Positions 1 to 12,230 of a stretch of DNA of 64,000 nt are shown here, one piece after another. Position numbers and translations under genes: made by a program. The notes below the pieces were generated by a model, which saw only the letters and a program-made list of their open reading frames with translations, did no database searches and was not told where the DNA came from. The DNA is from an uncultured Muribaculaceae bacterium (lineage in GTDB: Bacteria > Bacillota_I > Bacilli_A > RF39 > UBA660): the NCBI GenBank assembly GCA_964600615.1, contig CAZRJK010000003.1, positions 11,142-75,141 on the forward strand. Reading direction: 5' to 3'. Numbering within the stretch: the stretch's first letter is position 1; each line of letters begins with the position of its first letter.

Positions 1-1317
1 GAAGGAAAATCTGGGAGAAAGGCCGAAAAAAGACCAGCATTTATGGAGATGATAGCAAAAGCAAAGACTAAACCTAATCCTTTTGATGTTATTTTGGTTC
101 ATAAATTTGATAGATTTTCTAGAAGTCGTGAAGATAGTATAGTTTATAAATCTTTATTAAAAAAGGAATGTGGTATTTCTGTAATTTCTATTTCTGAGCC
201 TTTAGATCCTGATGATAAAATGAGTATAATAATTGAATCTTGGTTTGAAGCAATGGCAGAATACTACTCTATTAATTTGTCTGAAGAAGTTACTAAAGGA
301 ATGAAAGAAAAACATTCTCACGGTGAATTGCAAACGAATCCAAGCTATGGATATAATGCCGAAAATAATGTTCTAGTAATAAACGAAAAAGAAGCTAAAA
401 TTGTTAGATATATTTTTGAAGAATATGGAATAAATCATACACCGATGATTGAAATAGCTAGAAAATTATACAAAATGGGTATAAAGACTAAAAGAGGAAA
501 TAGTTTTGAAAATAGAACAATTTGCTATATTTTAAATAATCCTGTATATATAGGCAAATTAAAATATACTCCTGGAGGTAGAAAAGCTCATTTTTTTGAT
601 GATCCTAATACTATTCTAGTTGATGGCAAGCACTCACCTATTATACCAATTGAACTTTGGAATAAAGTTCAAAAAGAACTAACTAAAACTTTCAAATTTA
701 GACATCCTAATCAAAGAAATGATATAAATGTATCGAATTGGTTAAAAGGTATTATAAGATGTAAAGAATGTGGTTCTACAATGGTATTAAGCAATAAAAC
801 AAGATTAAGATGTAATGGTTACAACAAAGGTAGATGTTCAAATGCTGCAACTATTAATATTAAAGAAGCAAAAGAATTAATTATTAATCAACTGAGAAAT
901 GATTTTTCTAATGGGAAAATAGAACATATTGTGATTAATAAAAAACTTAATAAAAAAGTATCTGAACATGAAATATTACAAACAACTCTTGAAAAATTTA
1001 AAGAAAAAGAAAAAAGAATTAAAGATGCGTACTTAAACGGTATTGATTCTATAGAAGAATATAAGTTAAATAAAAATATGATAGAAAAAGAAAAGCAAGA
1101 AATTAAAAAGAAACTACATTCTGCCAATAAACCAGATAATAAAAAAACAATAACTAAAGTTATTGAAAATGGTAAAAAAATTTATGAATTATTAATTGAT
1201 GAAAATATTTCAGAAGATAAGAAAAATTTTTATGCTCATATGCTTTTTGATAAGATAGAATTTAATGATAAAACTGAAGAATTAGAACTCTATTATAACG
1301 ATGTTAAAAACCTTTAA
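1..1317 (+). CDS. Large serine recombinase (5' end outside window)
   Basis: Frame 1 is open from base 1 (EGKSGRKAEKRPAF...). Resolvase-type domain remnants are present (VHKFDRFSRS, EAMAEYYS). A recombinase domain, a zinc ribbon (CKECGS...RCNGYNKGRC) and a K/E-rich coiled-coil tail follow. The catalytic Ser would lie upstream of the window. Confidence 0.9.
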   Translation, partial: EGKSGRKAEKRPAFMEMIAKAKTKPNPFDVILVHKFDRFSRSREDSIVYKSLLKKECGISVISISEPLDPDDKMSIIIESWFEAMAEYYSINLSEEVTKGMKEKHSHGELQTNPSYGYNAENNVLVINEKEAKIVRYIFEEYGINHTPMIEIARKLYKMGIKTKRGNSFENRTICYILNNPVYIGKLKYTPGGRKAHFFDDPNTILVDGKHSPIIPIELWNKVQKELTKTFKFRHPNQRNDINVSNWLKGIIRCKECGSTMVLSNKTRLRCNGYNKGRCSNAATINIKEAKELIINQLRNDFSNGKIEHIVINKKLNKKVSEHEILQTTLEKFKEKEKRIKDAYLNGIDSIEEYKLNKNMIEKEKQEIKKKLHSANKPDNKKTITKVIENGKKIYELLIDENISEDKKNFYAHMLFDKIEFNDKTEELELYYNDVKNL

Positions 1318-1340
1318 AATAAGTATTGTCCCTCTTGTAA
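1..1340 (+). mobile_element. Right-hand edge of an integrated element carrying a large serine recombinase, inserted within cotJC; left end lies outside the window
   Basis: The recombinase gene ends at 1317. The truncated cotJC frame opens at 1341, right after an in-frame TAA at 1338-1340. The junction must therefore lie in about 1318-1345. Confidence 0.55.
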
Positions 1341-1817
1341 TATGGTGGTCCTAACGGTGAATTAGCTGCTGCTTTAAGATATTTAAATCAAAGATTTACT
1401 ATGCCTGATGATAAAGGAAGAGCTTTACTTACAGATATTGGTACTGAAGAACTAAATCATGTGGAAATGATTTGTACTATGTTATATCAACTTACTAGTG
1501 GGGCTTCTATTAAAGATATTGAAGAAGCTGGTCTTGCTAAGTATTATACTGAACACGGTTTAGATTTGTTTCCTGAGAATACTGAAGGTGTTCCTTTTAG
1601 CTCTTCTTATTTTGCTGCGGTTGGTGATCCTTTAGCTAATATATCCGAGGATATGGCTGCTGAGCAAAAAGCTAGAGCTGTATATGAGAATTTGATTAAT
1701 TTGTCTAATGATCCTGATGTTATTGAACCATTACTTTTTTTGCGACAAAGAGAGATAATACATTTTGCTAGATTTAGAGAATTATATAATGAATATAAGG
1801 ATAAGGGATATAAATAA
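1341..1817 (+). CDS. cotJC: 3' portion of a split Mn-catalase-family spore coat gene cotJC (lacks about the first 28 codons)
   Basis: Reads YGGPNGELAAALRYLNQRFTMPD...TDIGTEELNHVEMI...EQKARAVYE...REIIHFARF. By eye this aligns with B. subtilis CotJC from about residue 29 to the end. There is no start codon or RBS at the point where homology begins. Confidence 0.85.
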   Translation, partial: YGGPNGELAAALRYLNQRFTMPDDKGRALLTDIGTEELNHVEMICTMLYQLTSGASIKDIEEAGLAKYYTEHGLDLFPENTEGVPFSSSYFAAVGDPLANISEDMAAEQKARAVYENLINLSNDPDVIEPLLFLRQREIIHFARFRELYNEYKDKGYK

Positions 1818-1840
1818 AAAAAGGAATACTCCTTTTTTTA
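1816..1840. terminator. Bidirectional stem-loop between convergent cotJC fragment and cdaR
   Basis: AAAAGGA-ATAC-TCCTTTT hairpin flanked by an A-run and a T-run. It overlaps both stop codons. Confidence 0.55.
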
Positions 1841-3217
1841 TTTTTTAGTTATTCTAACTTTAATTTTTGTTGTTTTTGCTGTGTATGTTGCTTTATTATC
1901 TGTTCCTTCTACTTTGACGGCTACTTCGTAATCTCCCTCAGTATAATTATTTAAATCTACTTTGGCAGTTATCATTGATGATTCTATGCCGTCTAGAACA
2001 CTTTTTGTTCCTTTAACTACTACAGTTGTTTTACTTGAATTTTCTCCTATTGCTACAGCTTTATAATTTGGACTTAGATTAATTGTTTCAATATATACAT
2101 CTTTTATTTCTTTAGTAGTTTCTGTTCCTAATTTGATTGTTACTTTGGTATTCGTTCTTGACATTTCTTTTACTCCGGCAGGTTTAGAAATAATTACATC
2201 ATAGGTTTTATTTTCATTTAATCCTGATATATCTACTTCTACTGGTATATATTCTAATTCATCTAATACATCTTGATCACCATAGGCTACTATTTTATTA
2301 TTATCTAGAGTGATACTATCAATTGCTTTACCAAATTGTAGACTTCCATTAGGTATTACTTTTAATAAAACTTCTTTTTTAGGTGATTCTATTGTTACTT
2401 TTGCTGATAGTTTTGAAGGTTCTATTTCGACATCATTTACTACTTTTCCATCACTATCATAGGCTACTAGTTTTATGTCATCCATTTCTTTTATTCCTAT
2501 TTCTGGATTAATTATTTTGCTTACATCTACTAGAGCTTTTACTGTTGCAACTGAGGCTAATTTATGTTCTGATCCTTTTATTACTACTTCTTTTTCACTT
2601 ATTATAATATCACCTATAGATAATTTTTTATCTAGTTTGTTTTTGTTCATTACATCTATTGTTGCGGTCCTTGTTTCACTTATTTTAGGGTATATTGTTA
2701 CATTTACTGTAGATGGATCTAGTTTATATTCAACAGAGTTTATTGAGCAATCATAATCTAATTTTATTGTATGACTACCTTCTTTTAAGTTTGATAAGTC
2801 TGCTGTAACACTACCTTTTGATAATTGTTTTGCTAAATATAAGTCAACTTTTCTACCTATTAAGGTTACATCTACGGTTTCTGGTAATCCTTCTACTACG
2901 TAAGCATTATTATTGTAGGTAACTTGTACTTTTTGATCATATAAAACCTCGGCACTGTTGTTTACTATTACCGTTGATTCACTGTCAACATATAGAAATA
3001 GACTTATTGCTAAAATTAATGATATGAAAATTAATGTGTTTTTTCTTGTCAACCACTTTTCTAACTTGTCTGTTCTATTGCCAAGCTTATCGCTTATAAA
3101 AATAAATAATTTTGTTATTGGTAAAATAATTAGCTTATCAATAATTTTATATATGCCATGTATTATTGCTGCGATAGTTAAGAATATGTTTTTAATTATT
3201 TTCATTATTCTCACCAT
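1838..3217 (-). CDS. cdaR: CdaR (YbbR-domain regulator of diadenylate cyclase)
   Basis: N-terminal TM helix followed by repeated beta-rich YbbR-like modules. It overlaps the end of cdaA, matching the conserved cdaA-cdaR order. Confidence 0.8.
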   Translation of the reverse strand: MVRIMKIIKNIFLTIAAIIHGIYKIIDKLIILPITKLFIFISDKLGNRTDKLEKWLTRKNTLIFISLILAISLFLYVDSESTVIVNNSAEVLYDQKVQVTYNNNAYVVEGLPETVDVTLIGRKVDLYLAKQLSKGSVTADLSNLKEGSHTIKLDYDCSINSVEYKLDPSTVNVTIYPKISETRTATIDVMNKNKLDKKLSIGDIIISEKEVVIKGSEHKLASVATVKALVDVSKIINPEIGIKEMDDIKLVAYDSDGKVVNDVEIEPSKLSAKVTIESPKKEVLLKVIPNGSLQFGKAIDSITLDNNKIVAYGDQDVLDELEYIPVEVDISGLNENKTYDVIISKPAGVKEMSRTNTKVTIKLGTETTKEIKDVYIETINLSPNYKAVAIGENSSKTTVVVKGTKSVLDGIESSMITAKVDLNNYTEGDYEVAVKVEGTDNKATYTAKTTKIKVRITKK

Positions 3218-4034
3218 CCTTTATTTCTTCAGGTTCATCTTCAAATTCATCATCTAATAAAAATTCAGTTTTAGGCTTTAATTCTTCTACTAACATTATT
3301 CTTGCATCATCTATTGATAGGCCATGATTTAATACTCCACCGATTGCCATTGATATTTTTCCGGTTTCTTCACTTACGACTATAGCTATAGCATCTGATT
3401 CTTCACTTATTCCTAGAGCTGCTCTATGTCTTGTTCCTAATCTTTTGTTAATTTTAGCATTTAGGCTTATTGGAAATACAGCTCCTGCACTTGTAATTCT
3501 ATTACCTTGAATTATTACACCTCCATCGTGTAATGGGTTTCTTGGAAAGAATAGTGATATAAGTAGTTCAGAAGATATATCAGCATATATTCCTTTACTT
3601 CTTACAATATAGTCATTTAAACTTACATCTCTTTCTATTACAATTAATGCTCCTATTCTAGACTTTCTTAGGTAATCTATAGCATTCATTATTTCATAAA
3701 TCATTTTTTCTCTTTCATCCATTGTTAGAACTCTATGCTTGGTTAATATTTGTTTTCTTCCTAAATGCTCTAATAGATTTCTAATTTCTGGTTGAAAGAT
3801 TATAATTAATGCAAGTGGTCCCCACATTATTACGTATTCAAGTAATAATCCTACTGTTGTTAAGTGTAACCAATCACTTAATATTTTTATTACTAGAATT
3901 ATTATTACGCCTTTGAATATTAGGACCATTTTAATATTATTTTTTAGACTTCTTAAAATATAATAGATTATTATCCATACTAACGAGATATCTATTATTT
4001 TTTGAATTACGGTAATTAAACTACTAACAGTCAT
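3192..4034 (-). CDS. cdaA: Diadenylate cyclase CdaA (c-di-AMP synthase)
   Basis: Three N-terminal TM helices plus DAC-domain motifs (PLHDGGVII, LGTRHRAALG, VVSEETGKIS). Confidence 0.92.
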   Translation of the reverse strand: MTVSSLITVIQKIIDISLVWIIIYYILRSLKNNIKMVLIFKGVIIILVIKILSDWLHLTTVGLLLEYVIMWGPLALIIIFQPEIRNLLEHLGRKQILTKHRVLTMDEREKMIYEIMNAIDYLRKSRIGALIVIERDVSLNDYIVRSKGIYADISSELLISLFFPRNPLHDGGVIIQGNRITSAGAVFPISLNAKINKRLGTRHRAALGISEESDAIAIVVSEETGKISMAIGGVLNHGLSIDDARIMLVEELKPKTEFLLDDEFEDEPEEIKDGENNENN

Positions 4035-8041: not shown

Positions 8042-9340
8042 ATGAATAATACTGAAGAAAAAACTACTGTTGTAAATAATAATGTTAATAACGTGACTAA
8101 TACCAATAATGTTGGTAGTTTTAATGATCTTGCAACAAAAAAAGTAATTAATTTTGATACTACTCCTATTGTAGATGTAGTTAACTATATTTTATTAGAA
8201 GCTGCTCGTAAAGGAGCTTCTGATATTCATTTTGATCCTGCTGATAATTGTATGAAGGTAAGGTTTAGAATAGATGGTAAATTAGATACTTTTACTGTTG
8301 TTCCTAATACAGCTAAATTAAATTTAGTTGCTAGATTGAAAATTATGTCTGGTATGAATATCACAGAGACTAGATTACCTCAAGATGGCGCTATTAGGAC
8401 TACTATTGAGGGTATTGGATTAGATATGCGTGTCTCTTCTCTTCCTACAAAAATCGGTGAGAAAATCGTTATAAGAATTATGGATTATTCTATGAGTTTA
8501 CAAGGATTAGAGTCTCTTAGATTTAATGATATAAATTATAAAAAAGTATTAAAGATGATTAGTCAGCCTAATGGTATAATTTTAGTTACGGGTGCTACTG
8601 GTAGTGGTAAATCTACTACTGTTTACTCTATTTTGCAAAGATTAAATACTCCTGATGCGAATGTTATTTCTGTTGAGGATCCTGTTGAAATGGAAATTGA
8701 TGGGATTAATCAGATTCAGGTTAATAGTGAAATTGGTCTTGATTTTGCTACTGTTTTGAGAAGTATTTTGAGACAAGACCCTAATATAATTATGATTGGT
8801 GAGATAAGGGATAGTGAGACTGCTCAGATTGCTGTTAGAGCTTCTATTACTGGTCACTTAGTATTATCTACAATACATACTAATAATTCTTTATCTACTA
8901 TTGAAAGACTTCTAGATATGGATGTTGAAAGATATTTGTTATCTAGTGCGTTAGAAGGAATTATTTCTCAAAAACTTGCTAGAAAATTATGTGATAAATG
9001 TAAGAAGATTAGAAATGTTAATGAATATGAAAAGAATTTATTTAGAACTGTTTTAGGCTTGGAAGTTAATCAAACTTATGAAGCAGTTGGTTGTCCTGAG
9101 TGTAGTTATGGTTTTAAAGGTAGAATTGCTTTACAAGAGGTATTAGTAATTAATCAGGAAATTAGAGATGCTATTAGTAATAATGTTAATCGTGAAGATT
9201 TAAGAAAATTGGTTTATACTAAAGATGTTATTACTTTAATTCAAGATGGTTTTTATAAAGTATTAGCTGGTTTTACTACTATTACTGAAGTATTAAAGCT
9301 TATAGAATTGGATGATGAAATTGATGATATGAAAAAATAA
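8042..9340 (+). CDS. GspE/PilB/ComGA-family secretion ATPase
   Basis: Walker A GATGSGKST, Walker B IIMIGEIRD, His box TGHLVLSTIHTN and tetracysteine CDKC...CPEC. The N-terminus is Asn-rich and low-complexity. Confidence 0.9.
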   Translation: MNNTEEKTTVVNNNVNNVTNTNNVGSFNDLATKKVINFDTTPIVDVVNYILLEAARKGASDIHFDPADNCMKVRFRIDGKLDTFTVVPNTAKLNLVARLKIMSGMNITETRLPQDGAIRTTIEGIGLDMRVSSLPTKIGEKIVIRIMDYSMSLQGLESLRFNDINYKKVLKMISQPNGIILVTGATGSGKSTTVYSILQRLNTPDANVISVEDPVEMEIDGINQIQVNSEIGLDFATVLRSILRQDPNIIMIGEIRDSETAQIAVRASITGHLVLSTIHTNNSLSTIERLLDMDVERYLLSSALEGIISQKLARKLCDKCKKIRNVNEYEKNLFRTVLGLEVNQTYEAVGCPECSYGFKGRIALQEVLVINQEIRDAISNNVNREDLRKLVYTKDVITLIQDGFYKVLAGFTTITEVLKLIELDDEIDDMKK

Positions 9341-11207: not shown

Positions 11208-11477
11208 TCATCTTTCTTTATCTTTTAAATTTATACTATCTATTCCTATAAATAAATCTGCCATTTTTACGTTTAACGCTTTTGCTATTTGTACTAATGT
11301 ATAAATTGAGAAATACTTTTTTACATTTGGTGCTTCAATCCTTCTTATGAATTCATGAGAGTATTCTGTTATATCTGCAAGTTCTGCTTGTGTCAAGTTT
11401 GCTTTTTTTCTTGCTCGTTTTATATTAGCTGCTATAATATCATATATATCGGTGCTTTTTCTTTTGGCATTTCTCAT
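11208..11477 (-). CDS. XRE-family helix-turn-helix transcriptional regulator
   Basis: IKRARKKANLTQAELADITEYSHEFIRRIE is a classic Cro/C1-type HTH. Confidence 0.8.
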   Translation of the reverse strand: MRNAKRKSTDIYDIIAANIKRARKKANLTQAELADITEYSHEFIRRIEAPNVKKYFSIYTLVQIAKALNVKMADLFIGIDSINLKDKER

Positions 11478-11567
11478 TTATATCACCGAATTGATTGTCT
11501 CATAATTTTTTGTTTTTTTATGTAACCGTTTCGGTTACATTTTTATCAAGCCTATTATTATAAGGTG

Positions 11568-12230
11568 TTAACAAAGCTTATTTTTTAATTTTTTTAATAT
11601 TTTTGACTCATTTCTAGATATTTGAACCTGGTTTGTATTAAGATATTTTGCTGTTTCTTGTTGCGTTAATTCATTAAAATATCTTAGTTTTATTAATTCT
11701 AGTTCTCTGTTATTTAATTCTTTTAATCCTTCTTTTAATGTTATGTTTTCAATATTAATATTGTTTTCTCCTATAATATTATCTATTTTTTTAATCGAAT
11801 TATCATCTTCGTTTACTGTGCTATCAAGACTTTGAATTGTTTCTTTGAATCTCAGGACATCGTTTATAATTGTTTCATCTATTTCTAGGAATAATGATAA
11901 TTCGTAATTAGTAGGTTCTTTCATGAGTCGTTGAGTTAAGATATTTTTAGCTTCTAATATTTTTTTATATAATGAATTATATTTTCTTGACGTTTTTATT
12001 AATTTGGAATTATTTACATAGTTTAATACTTCACTTAAGATCCATTTATAGGCATAAGTGCTAAATTTTGTATTACAATCTTTATTATAATTCTTTTTAG
12101 CTTTTATTATTCCTATAACGCTTACCTGATACAAGTCATCAAATTCATAATATTTAGTATATCTGCTTATTATTTTACATATCAATCCTTTATTTTCTTC
12201 AATTAATTGTTTTAGTGTTGTATCATTCAT
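11568..12230 (-). CDS. sigF: Sporulation sigma factor, SigF-like (group 3 sigma-70)
   Basis: Region 2 reads DLYQVSVIGIIKAKKNY...FSTYAYKWILSEV. Region 4 HTH reads TQQETAKYLNTNQVQISRNESKILKKL. The gene lies between a STAS gene and the spoVA genes, as in the Bacillus spoIIA-spoVA neighbourhood. Confidence 0.7.
   Translation of the reverse strand: MNDTTLKQLIEENKGLICKIISRYTKYYEFDDLYQVSVIGIIKAKKNYNKDCNTKFSTYAYKWILSEVLNYVNNSKLIKTSRKYNSLYKKILEAKNILTQRLMKEPTNYELSLFLEIDETIINDVLRFKETIQSLDSTVNEDDNSIKKIDNIIGENNINIENITLKEGLKELNNRELELIKLRYFNELTQQETAKYLNTNQVQISRNESKILKKLKNKLC

What the first reader, a model, noticed from the sequence alone, without database searches (positions are those of the whole stretch)
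1..1817. Large serine recombinase ends 20 nt from a 5'-truncated cotJC: possible skin-like intervening element in a sporulation gene
Seen in sequence:
- The cotJC-homologous frame opens at 1341, directly after an in-frame TAA. It matches CotJC only from about residue 29 onward.
- No start codon, RBS, cotJA or cotJB precede it.
- A co-directional large serine recombinase gene stops at 1317.

Established: mother-cell sporulation genes such as sigK (skin/SpoIVCA) and spsM (SPbeta/SprA), and others including spoVFB, spoVR and gerE, are split by elements. These excise during sporulation using a large serine recombinase encoded at the element edge.

Inference: this is attR of such an element, and cotJC is reconstituted by developmental excision. 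A dead-end insertion is the alternative.
Basis: partly seen in the sequence, partly recalled or inferred. Interest (0 to 1): 0.65.

Follow-up and report, generated by a model that had tools for sequence, protein, structure and literature searches.

The report
Temperate phage integrated in cotJC
The window starts inside the right end of a temperate phage that a large serine recombinase has inserted precisely into the spore-coat catalase gene cotJC of an uncultured gut bacterium; removing the phage would restore the gene exactly, but whether that happens during sporulation is untested.

Summary
Window 1-1317 is the 3' part of a large serine recombinase (LSR) gene. Window 1341-1817 is cotJC from codon 29 to the stop.

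Other metagenome assemblies and contigs of the same species supply the other three att forms:
- an empty site with intact cotJB-cotJC (attB);
- the circular or free phage junction (attP, with inverted-repeat arms);
- the left junction (attL), at the same depth as attR.

All four share the 11-bp core AATATGGTGGT (window 1339-1349). Joining attL and attR restores the 186-codon gene exactly.

By its genes and its about 32-kb relatives, the element is a temperate tailed phage, not a skin-like remnant. It varies between samples: three samples show only the empty site.

In 80 species-representative genomes, 66 LSR relatives (37-85% identity) abut a cotJC fragment at the same Q-Y-G-G codons, in either orientation. 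Five of the elements are 2-4 kb remnants that keep an intact LSR and restorable halves.

Excision during sporulation is not shown; I put it at about 0.5. One sample has attP without attB, which points to ordinary phage replication.

One preprint, citing Abe et al. 2013, already names cotJC as an integration target. This is therefore a new member of a known kind.

The parts
1..1317 (+). Large serine recombinase (phage integrase) gene, codons 49-486 plus the stop (TAA 1315-1317). The first 48 codons lie upstream of the window.
   Evidence: It matches Pfam Resolvase, Recombinase and Zn_ribbon_recom. It is 100% identical to residues 49-486 of the full 486-aa ORF on L008. There are thousands of homologues.
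1318..1338 (+). Phage-derived half (P arm) of attR. The inverted-repeat arm GTCCCTCTTGTAATA spans 1328-1342.
   Evidence: It is identical to the left half of attP on L011, where the arm pairs with TATTACAAAAGGGAC on the other side of the core. Related attP sites on L012 and L020 have the same architecture.
1339..1349 (+). Common core AATATGGTGGT, shared by attB, attP, attL and attR. The inferred crossover dinucleotide is GG at 1347-1348.
   Evidence: I compared attR, attB (L003), attP (L011) and attL. The GG lies at the symmetry centre of the attP arms. It is also contained in the direct-repeat cores of all five mini-elements.
1350..1375 (+). Host-derived half (B' arm) of attR, inside cotJC codons 32-40. 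The extent is approximate.
   Evidence: It is identical to the intact gene on L003 and L004. The extent is inferred from the usual 40-50 bp size of serine-integrase att sites.
1341..1817 (+). 3' part of cotJC (manganese-catalase-type spore coat protein): codons 29-186 plus the stop. It has no start codon or RBS of its own; the first ATG is at 1401.
   Evidence: It matches Pfam Mn_catalase profile positions 29-193. It is 100% identical to residues 29-186 of the intact CotJC that follows cotJB on L003. It is related to solved manganese catalases.
1838..4034 (-). Host flank: ybbR-like gene (1838-3205) and the diadenylate cyclase gene cdaA (3192-4034). They anchor the comparison with empty-site contigs.
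   Evidence: They match Pfam YbbR, and DAC plus CdaA_N. An identical YbbR protein lies next to intact cotJC on L003 and L004, and next to split cotJC on L001, L002 and L007.

Best explanation
Window 1-1349 is the right end (integrase gene plus attR) of a temperate tailed phage. Its close relatives are about 32 kb. The host is an uncultured, low-GC (27%), spore-forming gut bacterium of the class Bacilli.

Shown:
- The phage's large serine recombinase joined a quasi-palindromic attP (GTCCCTCTTGTAATA-TGGTGGTGCT-TATTACAAAAGGGAC) to an attB formed by cotJC codons 29-31 (Tyr-Gly-Gly).
- The event was conservative. Both gene halves persist: attL carries cotJB plus 31 cotJC codons, and attR carries codons 29-186.
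- The reverse reaction recreates the intact 186-codon gene to the base.
- The phage is mobile in the population. Empty sites, lysogens and free or circular attP DNA all occur.

Inferred:
- While integrated, cotJC is off. The 5' piece would end after 14 phage-derived codons. The 3' piece has no promoter, RBS or start codon.
- The crossover is at the GG dinucleotide, window 1347-1348.
- As with SPbeta in spsM, the integrase together with an unidentified phage directionality factor excises the prophage on induction. It probably also does so in the sporulating mother cell, which would reconstitute cotJC there while the forespore keeps the prophage. I put the mother-cell step at about 0.5.
For: Anatomy of the junction.

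Empty site: an identical ybbR flank next to intact cotJB-cotJC on L003 and L004. It is also seen in runs X1, X5, X6 and X9.

attP: present on L011, whose integrase is 96% identical, and as a branch in run X2.

attL: run X2 has a 53-bp contig at depth 19.2 that reads AATGGCTAAATATATTATTTCTCAATATGGTGGT followed by GCTTATTACAAAAGGGACT. In the same run cotJB is at depth 17.8 and attR at 15.1.

Phage nature: CI-like S24 repressor, Cro-like HTH protein, replication initiator and DnaB helicase on L011. Close relatives L012, L013 and L020 add tail, holin and amidase genes on contigs of about 32 kb that carry attP.

Specificity of the recombinase clade: 26 + 40 of 80 species-representative loci abut a cotJC fragment at the same codons. 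At least four more are attP forms with a cotJC-like core.

Hints of a host-beneficial excision function:
- Five remnants of 2-4 kb keep an intact LSR, flanking direct-repeat cores and restorable frames.
- 18 of the 26 3' fragments that follow an LSR extend as one uninterrupted match to at least residue 173.
- A sigmaK-type motif (AC-N16/17-CATAnnnTA) precedes cotJB in four related species. The background rate is 0.008 per 160 nt.
- Every element of this kind tested experimentally in a mother-cell gene (skin, SPbeta, vfbin, vrin, gin, yin) excises during sporulation or in a growth-phase-dependent way (PMC4191935, PMC5595907, PMC10747680).
Against: - No data from sporulating cells exist for this organism.
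- Run X2 has attP at depth 7.5 and no attB contig. Run X1 has attB at 7.9 and no attP. Mother-cell excision without replication would give attB and attP in equal amounts. These patterns fit phage replication and coexisting non-lysogens. Logan contigs drop rare variants, so low-level attB cannot be excluded.
- No sigmaE- or sigmaK-type motif was found upstream of the integrase, and no directionality factor was identified.
- Serine integrases commonly target conserved coding sequence with no developmental link.
- From my own knowledge of the B. subtilis literature, cotJ mutants still make spores, so simple inactivation could be tolerated.
- The left part of this particular prophage was not seen. 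Only 13 kb of a 96%-identical variant and complete relatives at 80-85% were available.
Confidence: 0.55

Rival explanations
1. Plain lysogeny in a tolerated site. The phage uses the conserved Q-Y-G-G codons of cotJC only because they are a reliable, widely conserved landing pad. Lysogens make spores without CotJC. Excision happens only on prophage induction (SOS cleavage of the S24 repressor) and leads to lysis, not to gene reconstitution in the mother cell.
For: - The element has the gene set of an inducible phage, with a LexA/CI-like S24 repressor.
- Run X2 has attP without attB, and run X1 has attB without attP.
- The prophage is absent from many samples of the species.
- No sporulation-type promoter motif precedes the integrase.
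- Serine integrases often target coding genes (my own knowledge).
Against: - Remnants of 2-4 kb with no phage structural genes still keep a full-length integrase and undamaged cotJC halves in five species. That is hard to explain without selection for excision.
- Most split cotJC fragments across 66 species carry no stops or frameshifts.
- All experimentally tested analogues excise during sporulation (PMC4191935, PMC5595907).
Confidence: 0.4
2. Dead-end insertion. The element is defective or its partner junction has been lost, so cotJC is a permanent pseudogene in this strain.
For: - The window and its source contig stop inside the integrase, so the rest of this copy was not seen.
- In a few other species the 3' fragment ends at about residue 62-68, and no second recombinase was found in the locus (L056, L061, L063, L089).
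Against: - attL is present at the same depth as attR and cotJB in run X2.
- attP DNA is present in the same runs.
- The integrase ORF is intact and has its catalytic residues.
- The 3' cotJC part is 100% identical to the intact allele.
Confidence: 0.04
3. Assembly chimera that joins a phage contig to a host contig at a short shared repeat.
For: Phage and host share the 11-bp core, and assemblies tend to break here. Several contigs end at or near the junction.
Against: - The 11-bp core is shorter than the assemblers' k-mers.
- The same junction appears in at least four independent assemblies and in three runs with consistent depths.
- 66 other species show the same architecture.
Confidence: 0.01

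Closest known systems
SPbeta prophage in spsM of Bacillus subtilis (integrase SprA, directionality factor SprB)
   Same: An active temperate phage with a large serine integrase at its edge splits a mother-cell sporulation gene. Both halves are kept, and precise excision restores the frame (PMC4191935, PMC5499854).
   Different: The target gene is different, and the integrase is not closely related: no deposited phage reaches more than 42% identity. The phage is much smaller, about 32 kb. No SprB-like factor or sporulation promoter was identified. Sporulation-specific excision is not shown here.
skin element in sigK (SpoIVCA) of B. subtilis and Clostridioides difficile
   Same: A serine-recombinase element sits inside a mother-cell gene. 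The 2-4 kb cotJC remnants in other species (L095, L085, L046, L036, L067) resemble skin in being degraded elements that keep the recombinase.
   Different: The element at this window is a full phage that varies between strains, not a fixed defective remnant. sigK is a master regulator, whereas cotJC is a structural or enzymatic coat gene.
cotJC named as a phage or transposon integration target (Abe et al. 2013, as cited in bioRxiv 10.1101/2021.11.22.469490)
   Same: [quoted passage not shown]
   Different: I could not read the 2013 paper. I therefore do not know which organisms or sites it lists, or whether any excision was tested. The organism here is an uncultured gut member of the Bacilli. 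I found no account of the dedicated recombinase clade in the papers I could search.
gin element in gerE (Bacillus cereus) and yin element in yabG (Clostridium botulinum)
   Same: These are small or non-phage intervening elements with serine recombinases. They excise during sporulation or in a growth-phase-dependent way (PMC5595907, PMC10747680).
   Different: They are in different genes and have different recombinases. They are comparable to the mini-elements found in other species, not to the phage at this window.
A118 / phi10403S prophage in comK of Listeria (active lysogeny)
   Same: A serine-integrase phage lies in a coding gene, and reversible excision acts as a switch (my own knowledge; not tested here).
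   Different: There is no link to sporulation, and the excision trigger is different.

Membership tests
Large serine recombinase (phage serine integrase) | N-terminal resolvase-type catalytic domain with the serine nucleophile | tested here: met
   Pfam Resolvase matches residues 2-109 of the window fragment. The full-length identical protein on L008 has RVSTDEQ, with S11 invariant across 16 relatives. The window itself lacks the first 48 codons.
Large serine recombinase (phage serine integrase) | C-terminal recombinase domain plus zinc-ribbon domain | tested here: met
   PF07508 (E 5.6e-21) and PF13408 (E 1.7e-10) both match. The Lys/Glu-rich stretch after the zinc ribbon is consistent with a coiled coil; I judged that by eye only.
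Large serine recombinase (phage serine integrase) | Short att sites with imperfect inverted-repeat arms around a central dinucleotide, and a conservative crossover with no target duplication beyond the shared core | tested here: met
   attP arms are GTCCCTCTTGTAATA and TATTACAAAAGGGAC. The 11-bp core is common to attB, attP, attL and attR. The position of the crossover dinucleotide is inferred from symmetry, not measured.
Sporulation gene-intervening element (skin / SPbeta type) | Inserted inside the coding sequence of a mother-cell-expressed sporulation gene | tested here: inconclusive
   Insertion inside cotJC, which lies directly after cotJB (PF12652), is shown. Mother-cell expression rests on B. 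subtilis knowledge and on a sigmaK-type promoter motif upstream of cotJB. There are no expression data.
Sporulation gene-intervening element (skin / SPbeta type) | Serine recombinase encoded at the edge of the element | tested here: met
   The integrase stop codon lies 21 nt from the core.
Sporulation gene-intervening element (skin / SPbeta type) | Both gene halves are retained, and precise excision restores the open reading frame | tested here: met
   An attL contig is present in run X2. The empty site is identical to the in-silico join.
Sporulation gene-intervening element (skin / SPbeta type) | Excision occurs during sporulation, in the mother cell only | not testable with these tools
   The organism is uncultured, and no RNA run or raw-read run holds the locus. 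The attB/attP depths in metagenomes do not show it.
Sporulation gene-intervening element (skin / SPbeta type) | A directionality factor or the recombinase is under sporulation-specific control | tested here: inconclusive
   No AC-N16/17-CATAnnnTA or sigmaE-like motif was found within 200 nt upstream of the integrase in 18 relatives. No directionality factor was identified.
CotJC / manganese catalase family | Mn_catalase fold, about 190 aa, encoded directly downstream of cotJB | tested here: met
   PF05067 matches with E 1.1e-43. The intact 186-aa protein follows, and overlaps, cotJB on L003. It is related to solved manganese catalases. It scores below the NCBIfam manganese catalase equivalog cut-off, as expected for the shorter CotJC type.
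Functional temperate phage | Lysogeny, replication, structural and lysis modules, plus a circular or free attP form | tested here: inconclusive
   attP, repressor, Cro-like, replication initiator and DnaB genes are seen for the 96%-identical variant. Tail, holin and amidase genes are seen only in relatives at 80-85% identity. The structural half of this exact phage was not recovered.

The most novel reading that the evidence does not exclude
cotJC may be a second sigK-like hub of programmed DNA rearrangement in gut spore-formers.

- A dedicated clade of serine recombinases (37-96% identity) recognises the Q-Y-G-G codons in either orientation.
- Its elements range from complete phages to 2-kb remnants.
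- Some species carry a second, unrelated serine-recombinase element in the D-I-G-T-E-E codons of the same gene. Two excisions would then be needed to rebuild one coat gene during sporulation.
Probability: 0.35. Interest if true: 0.7.

Novelty: new member of a known kind. Interest (0 to 1): 0.5.

Why it matters
If excision turns out to be developmental, this adds a coat-enzyme gene to the short list of sporulation genes controlled by phage excision. It would do so in uncultured gut commensals, which depend on spores for transmission.

The family-level result is useful whatever the outcome:
- The recombinase clade has a defined, highly conserved 11-bp core target.
- Natural attB, attP, attL and attR examples exist for it in dozens of species.
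- It integrates in both orientations.

That makes it a ready data set for studying how serine integrases evolve target and polarity, and for finding directionality factors.

The result also warns annotators. A truncated cotJC next to a recombinase in gut Firmicutes genomes is usually a split gene, not a pseudogene.

Tried and rejected
- An exact 70-nt attR pattern found nothing in genome contigs. The species representative evidently lacks this junction.
- The look-up with the longest YbbR ORF failed because the called start is 4 codons downstream. The shorter ORF worked.
I used L010 instead, a relative identical over the 44 nt that matter.
attL therefore had to come from reads.
- Metatranscriptomes do not hold the locus.
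- Abe et al. 2013 is not held in the library.
- A scan for sigmaE/sigmaK-type promoters upstream of the integrase gave nothing convincing.
- I did not try to identify a directionality factor. The small ORFs next to the integrase differ between variants (an 83-aa zinc-ribbon membrane protein on L008; 157-159-aa proteins on L011 and L012) and have no informative family.
- I rejected a reading of the 138-aa ORF (1401-1817) as a functional short catalase. It would lack the conserved GEL motif that aligns with the same motif in solved manganese catalases; I recall this motif holds the first metal-binding glutamate. It also has no RBS.
Full report
**1. What is in the window**

Window 1-1317 (+) is one open frame that ends with TAA at 1315-1317. 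It matches Pfam Resolvase, Recombinase and Zn_ribbon_recom, the three domains of a large serine recombinase (LSR). The window start cuts the gene. The complete 486-aa protein, identical over residues 49-486, is on metagenome contig L008 and has the catalytic serine in RVSTDEQ.

After 23 nt, a second frame opens at 1341, directly after an in-frame TAA. It runs to 1817 and matches Pfam Mn_catalase from profile position 29. The first ATG is at 1401, and no RBS, cotJA or cotJB precedes the frame. The host genes ybbR and cdaA follow on the other strand.

**2. The four att forms**

Contigs that encode exactly the window's YbbR protein fall into two classes.
- L001/L006, L002, L007 and L008 carry the split gene.
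- L003 and L004 carry an uninterrupted 186-codon cotJC directly after, and overlapping, a cotJB gene (PF12652). Residues 29-186 are 100% identical to the window.

The four sequences are:
- attB (empty site): ...AAATATATTATTTCTC AATATGGTGGT CCTAACGG...
- attR (window): ...GTATTGTCCCTCTTGT AATATGGTGGT CCTAACGG...
- attP: ...TTGTCCCTCTTGT AATATGGTGGT GCTTATTACAAAAGGGAC...
- attL: AATGGCTAAATATATTATTTCTC AATATGGTGGT GCTTATTACAAAAGGGACT

The attP sequence comes from contig L011 of the same study, whose integrase is 96% identical. Its arms, GTCCCTCTTGTAATA and TATTACAAAAGGGAC, are inverted repeats.

The attL sequence comes from Logan contigs of run X2 laid on the conserved 5' cotJC stretch of a relative (L010). 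It is a 53-bp contig at depth 19.2. In the same run cotJB is at 17.8 and attR at 15.1.

The 11-bp core AATATGGTGGT (window 1339-1349) is common to all four forms. The symmetry centre of attP falls on the GG at 1347-1348, which I take to be the crossover dinucleotide; this is inferred. Joining attL and attR gives the attB sequence exactly.

**3. What the element is**

Upstream of the integrase lie:
- a LexA/CI-like S24 repressor;
- a divergent Cro-like HTH gene;
- a replication initiator and a DnaB helicase;
- many small ORFs.

Relatives with 80-85% identical integrases sit on contigs of about 32 kb. On these, the integrase and attP are followed by lysis genes (holin, amidase) and tail genes, the layout expected of a circularly assembled temperate tailed phage. 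No deposited phage has an integrase more than 42% identical. The element is thus a phage, comparable to SPbeta in spsM and unlike the decayed skin element. The structural half of this exact phage was not recovered.

**4. Population state**

The host is an uncultured gut bacterium. A close relative's protein is annotated 'MAG: Bacilli bacterium', and the window is 27% G+C.

| Run | attB | attR | attL | attP |
|---|---|---|---|---|
| X1 | 7.9 | 3.7 | no contig | no branch |
| X2 | no contig | 15.1 | 19.2 | 7.5 |
| X3 | not seen | yes | not seen | yes |
| X5, X6, X9 | only form | none | none | none |

Values are contig depths. The prophage therefore varies between samples and is mobile.

These depths do not show developmental excision, which would give attB equal to attP. 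They fit phage replication in X2 and coexisting non-lysogens in X1. One caveat applies: Logan contigs drop rare variants.

**5. The recombinase clade is dedicated to cotJC**

I searched one genome per GTDB species with an alignment of the integrase and its relatives. That returned 80 loci at 37-96% identity. Their arrangement is as follows.
- In 26 loci, as in the window, the integrase is followed on the same strand by a 3' cotJC fragment that starts at residue 18-30.
- In 40 loci it is followed on the opposite strand by cotJC residues 1 to about 31 and cotJB. That is the same site with the phage in the other orientation.
- Of the other 14, at least four are attP forms whose core looks like cotJC (L024, L032, L052, L081).
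- Three more are linked to cotJC in other arrangements (L038, L042, L085), and three are contig ends.

Five loci hold both halves within a few kb, so the element is only about 2.1-4.2 kb (L095, L085, L046, L036, L067). Each has an intact 468-480-aa integrase. Each has a flanking direct-repeat core: GGGGGAGCG, GGAGGT, TGGTGGTGCTAA, TATGGCGG and GGAGGACC. Each has a frame that reads Q-(Y/F)-G-G-(P/A)-x-G-E-L when the halves are joined. Their cargo is not phage structural genes. It includes a repressor plus an uncharacterised 339-aa protein, a pair of small adjacent ORFs that look like a toxin-antitoxin pair by eye, and a 487-aa multi-pass membrane protein that looks like a permease.

A full-length recombinase and undamaged gene halves have survived the loss of the phage. 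That is the classic argument made for skin, and it is the best indirect support for a host-serving excision function in this family.

**6. Is cotJC a mother-cell gene here?**

In the species where cotJB is the first gene of the operon (L003, L010, L014-L018, L031), a motif AC-N16/17-CATAnnnTA lies just upstream. This is the Bacillus sigmaK-type consensus as I recall it. Chance expectation is 0.008 per 160 nt. This is suggestive only. The same scan found nothing upstream of the integrase, although that region holds a conserved terminator and inverted repeat.

**7. Mechanism and likelihoods**

Shown:
- LSR-mediated conservative integration at cotJC codons 29-31;
- retention of both halves;
- precise reversibility;
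- mobility in nature.

Inferred:
- cotJC is silent while split. The 5' piece ends after 14 phage codons. The 3' piece has no expression signals, and a product started at ATG 1401 would lack the conserved GEL motif, which aligns with the same motif in solved manganese catalases.
- Excision needs a phage directionality factor, as for other serine integrases (PMC5499854, PMC12286644).
- Excision in the mother cell is, in my estimate, about even odds. The alternative is a merely tolerated insertion that excises only on induction.

**8. Comparison with what is known**

The kind is well established:
- skin in sigK;
- SPbeta in spsM;
- vfbin in spoVFB;
- vrin in spoVR;
- gin in gerE;
- yin in yabG (PMC4191935, PMC5595907, PMC5025042, PMC10747680).

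A preprint on SPbeta relatives, citing Abe et al. [quoted passage not shown] I could not read the 2013 paper. I found no paper that describes cotJC excision or this recombinase clade. The window's case is therefore a new member of a known kind. The breadth of the clade, the two orientations and the remnants may be new, but I cannot establish that from the papers I could search.

**9. Verdict**

The feature is real and its anatomy is now resolved at base level. Interest is moderate at 0.5: it is solid and testable, but the category is known and the developmental step is unproven.

Noticed in passing
L014-L019 (about 11446-11560), compared with window 1315-1349: Related phages (integrase 62% identical, found on contigs up to 1.19 Mb) sit at the same cotJC codons in the opposite orientation, so the integrase end abuts cotJB plus the 5' cotJC fragment. 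Across 80 species the split is 40 of this type to 26 of the window's type. This implies that the central dinucleotide of attP has flipped relative to its arms during evolution.
   Followed up: partly
L038 11600-11760 and 16703-18480; also L083, L056, L061, L063, L085, L089: cotJC has a second break at the D-I-G-T-E-E codons (about residues 60-68). In L038 a different 587-aa serine recombinase with about 6.7 kb of cargo lies there, and the core GGGACCGAGGA is repeated on both sides. In L083 a 38%-identical relative of that recombinase lies next to the break. Some genomes therefore carry a doubly split cotJC.
   Followed up: partly
L036 11800-14990; L042 11458-11751: There may be a third break point near cotJC residue 125-136. 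In L036 about 3.2 kb separates matches to residues 26-136 and 133-175. In L042 the C-terminal side of a cotJC fragment abuts the integrase.
   Followed up: no
L095 9286-11403; L085 9202-12120; L046 7255-11451; L036 7492-11468; L067 7462-11414: Mini intervening elements of 2.1-4.2 kb in cotJC keep only an intact serine recombinase plus a little cargo. The cargo includes a repressor with an uncharacterised 339-aa protein, two small adjacent ORFs that look like a toxin-antitoxin pair, and a 487-aa membrane protein. The cotJC frames can be restored by joining the halves.
   Followed up: partly
L008 920-1084, and the equivalent stretch in L011, L012, L014, L020, L025, L026, L030, L032, L033, L035, L046: The region upstream of the integrase start is conserved among phages whose integrases are only 60-96% identical. 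It holds a terminator-like hairpin, then GAAAAAC...TTAGTCAGCAAACTAAAA, then an inverted repeat (for example TATAGGTTTTTCTATA) followed by CATA. It is possibly an operator or promoter that controls integrase expression.
   Followed up: no
L003 4225-4300 (minus strand); L010 about 2660-2700; L014 about 12000-12050: A sigmaK-type promoter motif (AC-N16/17-CATAnnnTA) lies just upstream of cotJB in four related species that lack cotJA. In most of the Clostridia loci, a coding sequence with the conserved GT(I/V)FPELD motif lies directly upstream of cotJB. I take it to be cotJA, but did not test this.
   Followed up: partly
L023, L028, L029, L087: Contigs that carry these Firmicutes phage integrases, and in L028 and L029 cotJ fragments as well, are binned into MAGs labelled Muribaculaceae, Paludibacteraceae or Alphaproteobacteria. 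This is probably mis-binning of phage or prophage contigs.
   Followed up: no
L007 6908-8207, compared with window 8042-9340: The type II/IV secretion ATPase gene is intact in the window (432 aa). In another strain's contig it is broken into three ORFs of 51, 103 and 261 aa.
   Followed up: no
Literature: PMC11222575: In Clostridioides difficile R20291, prophage phi027 lies directly next to CDR20291_1465, a CotJC-like manganese catalase gene. Whether that is another catalase-gene attachment site was not examined.
   Followed up: no
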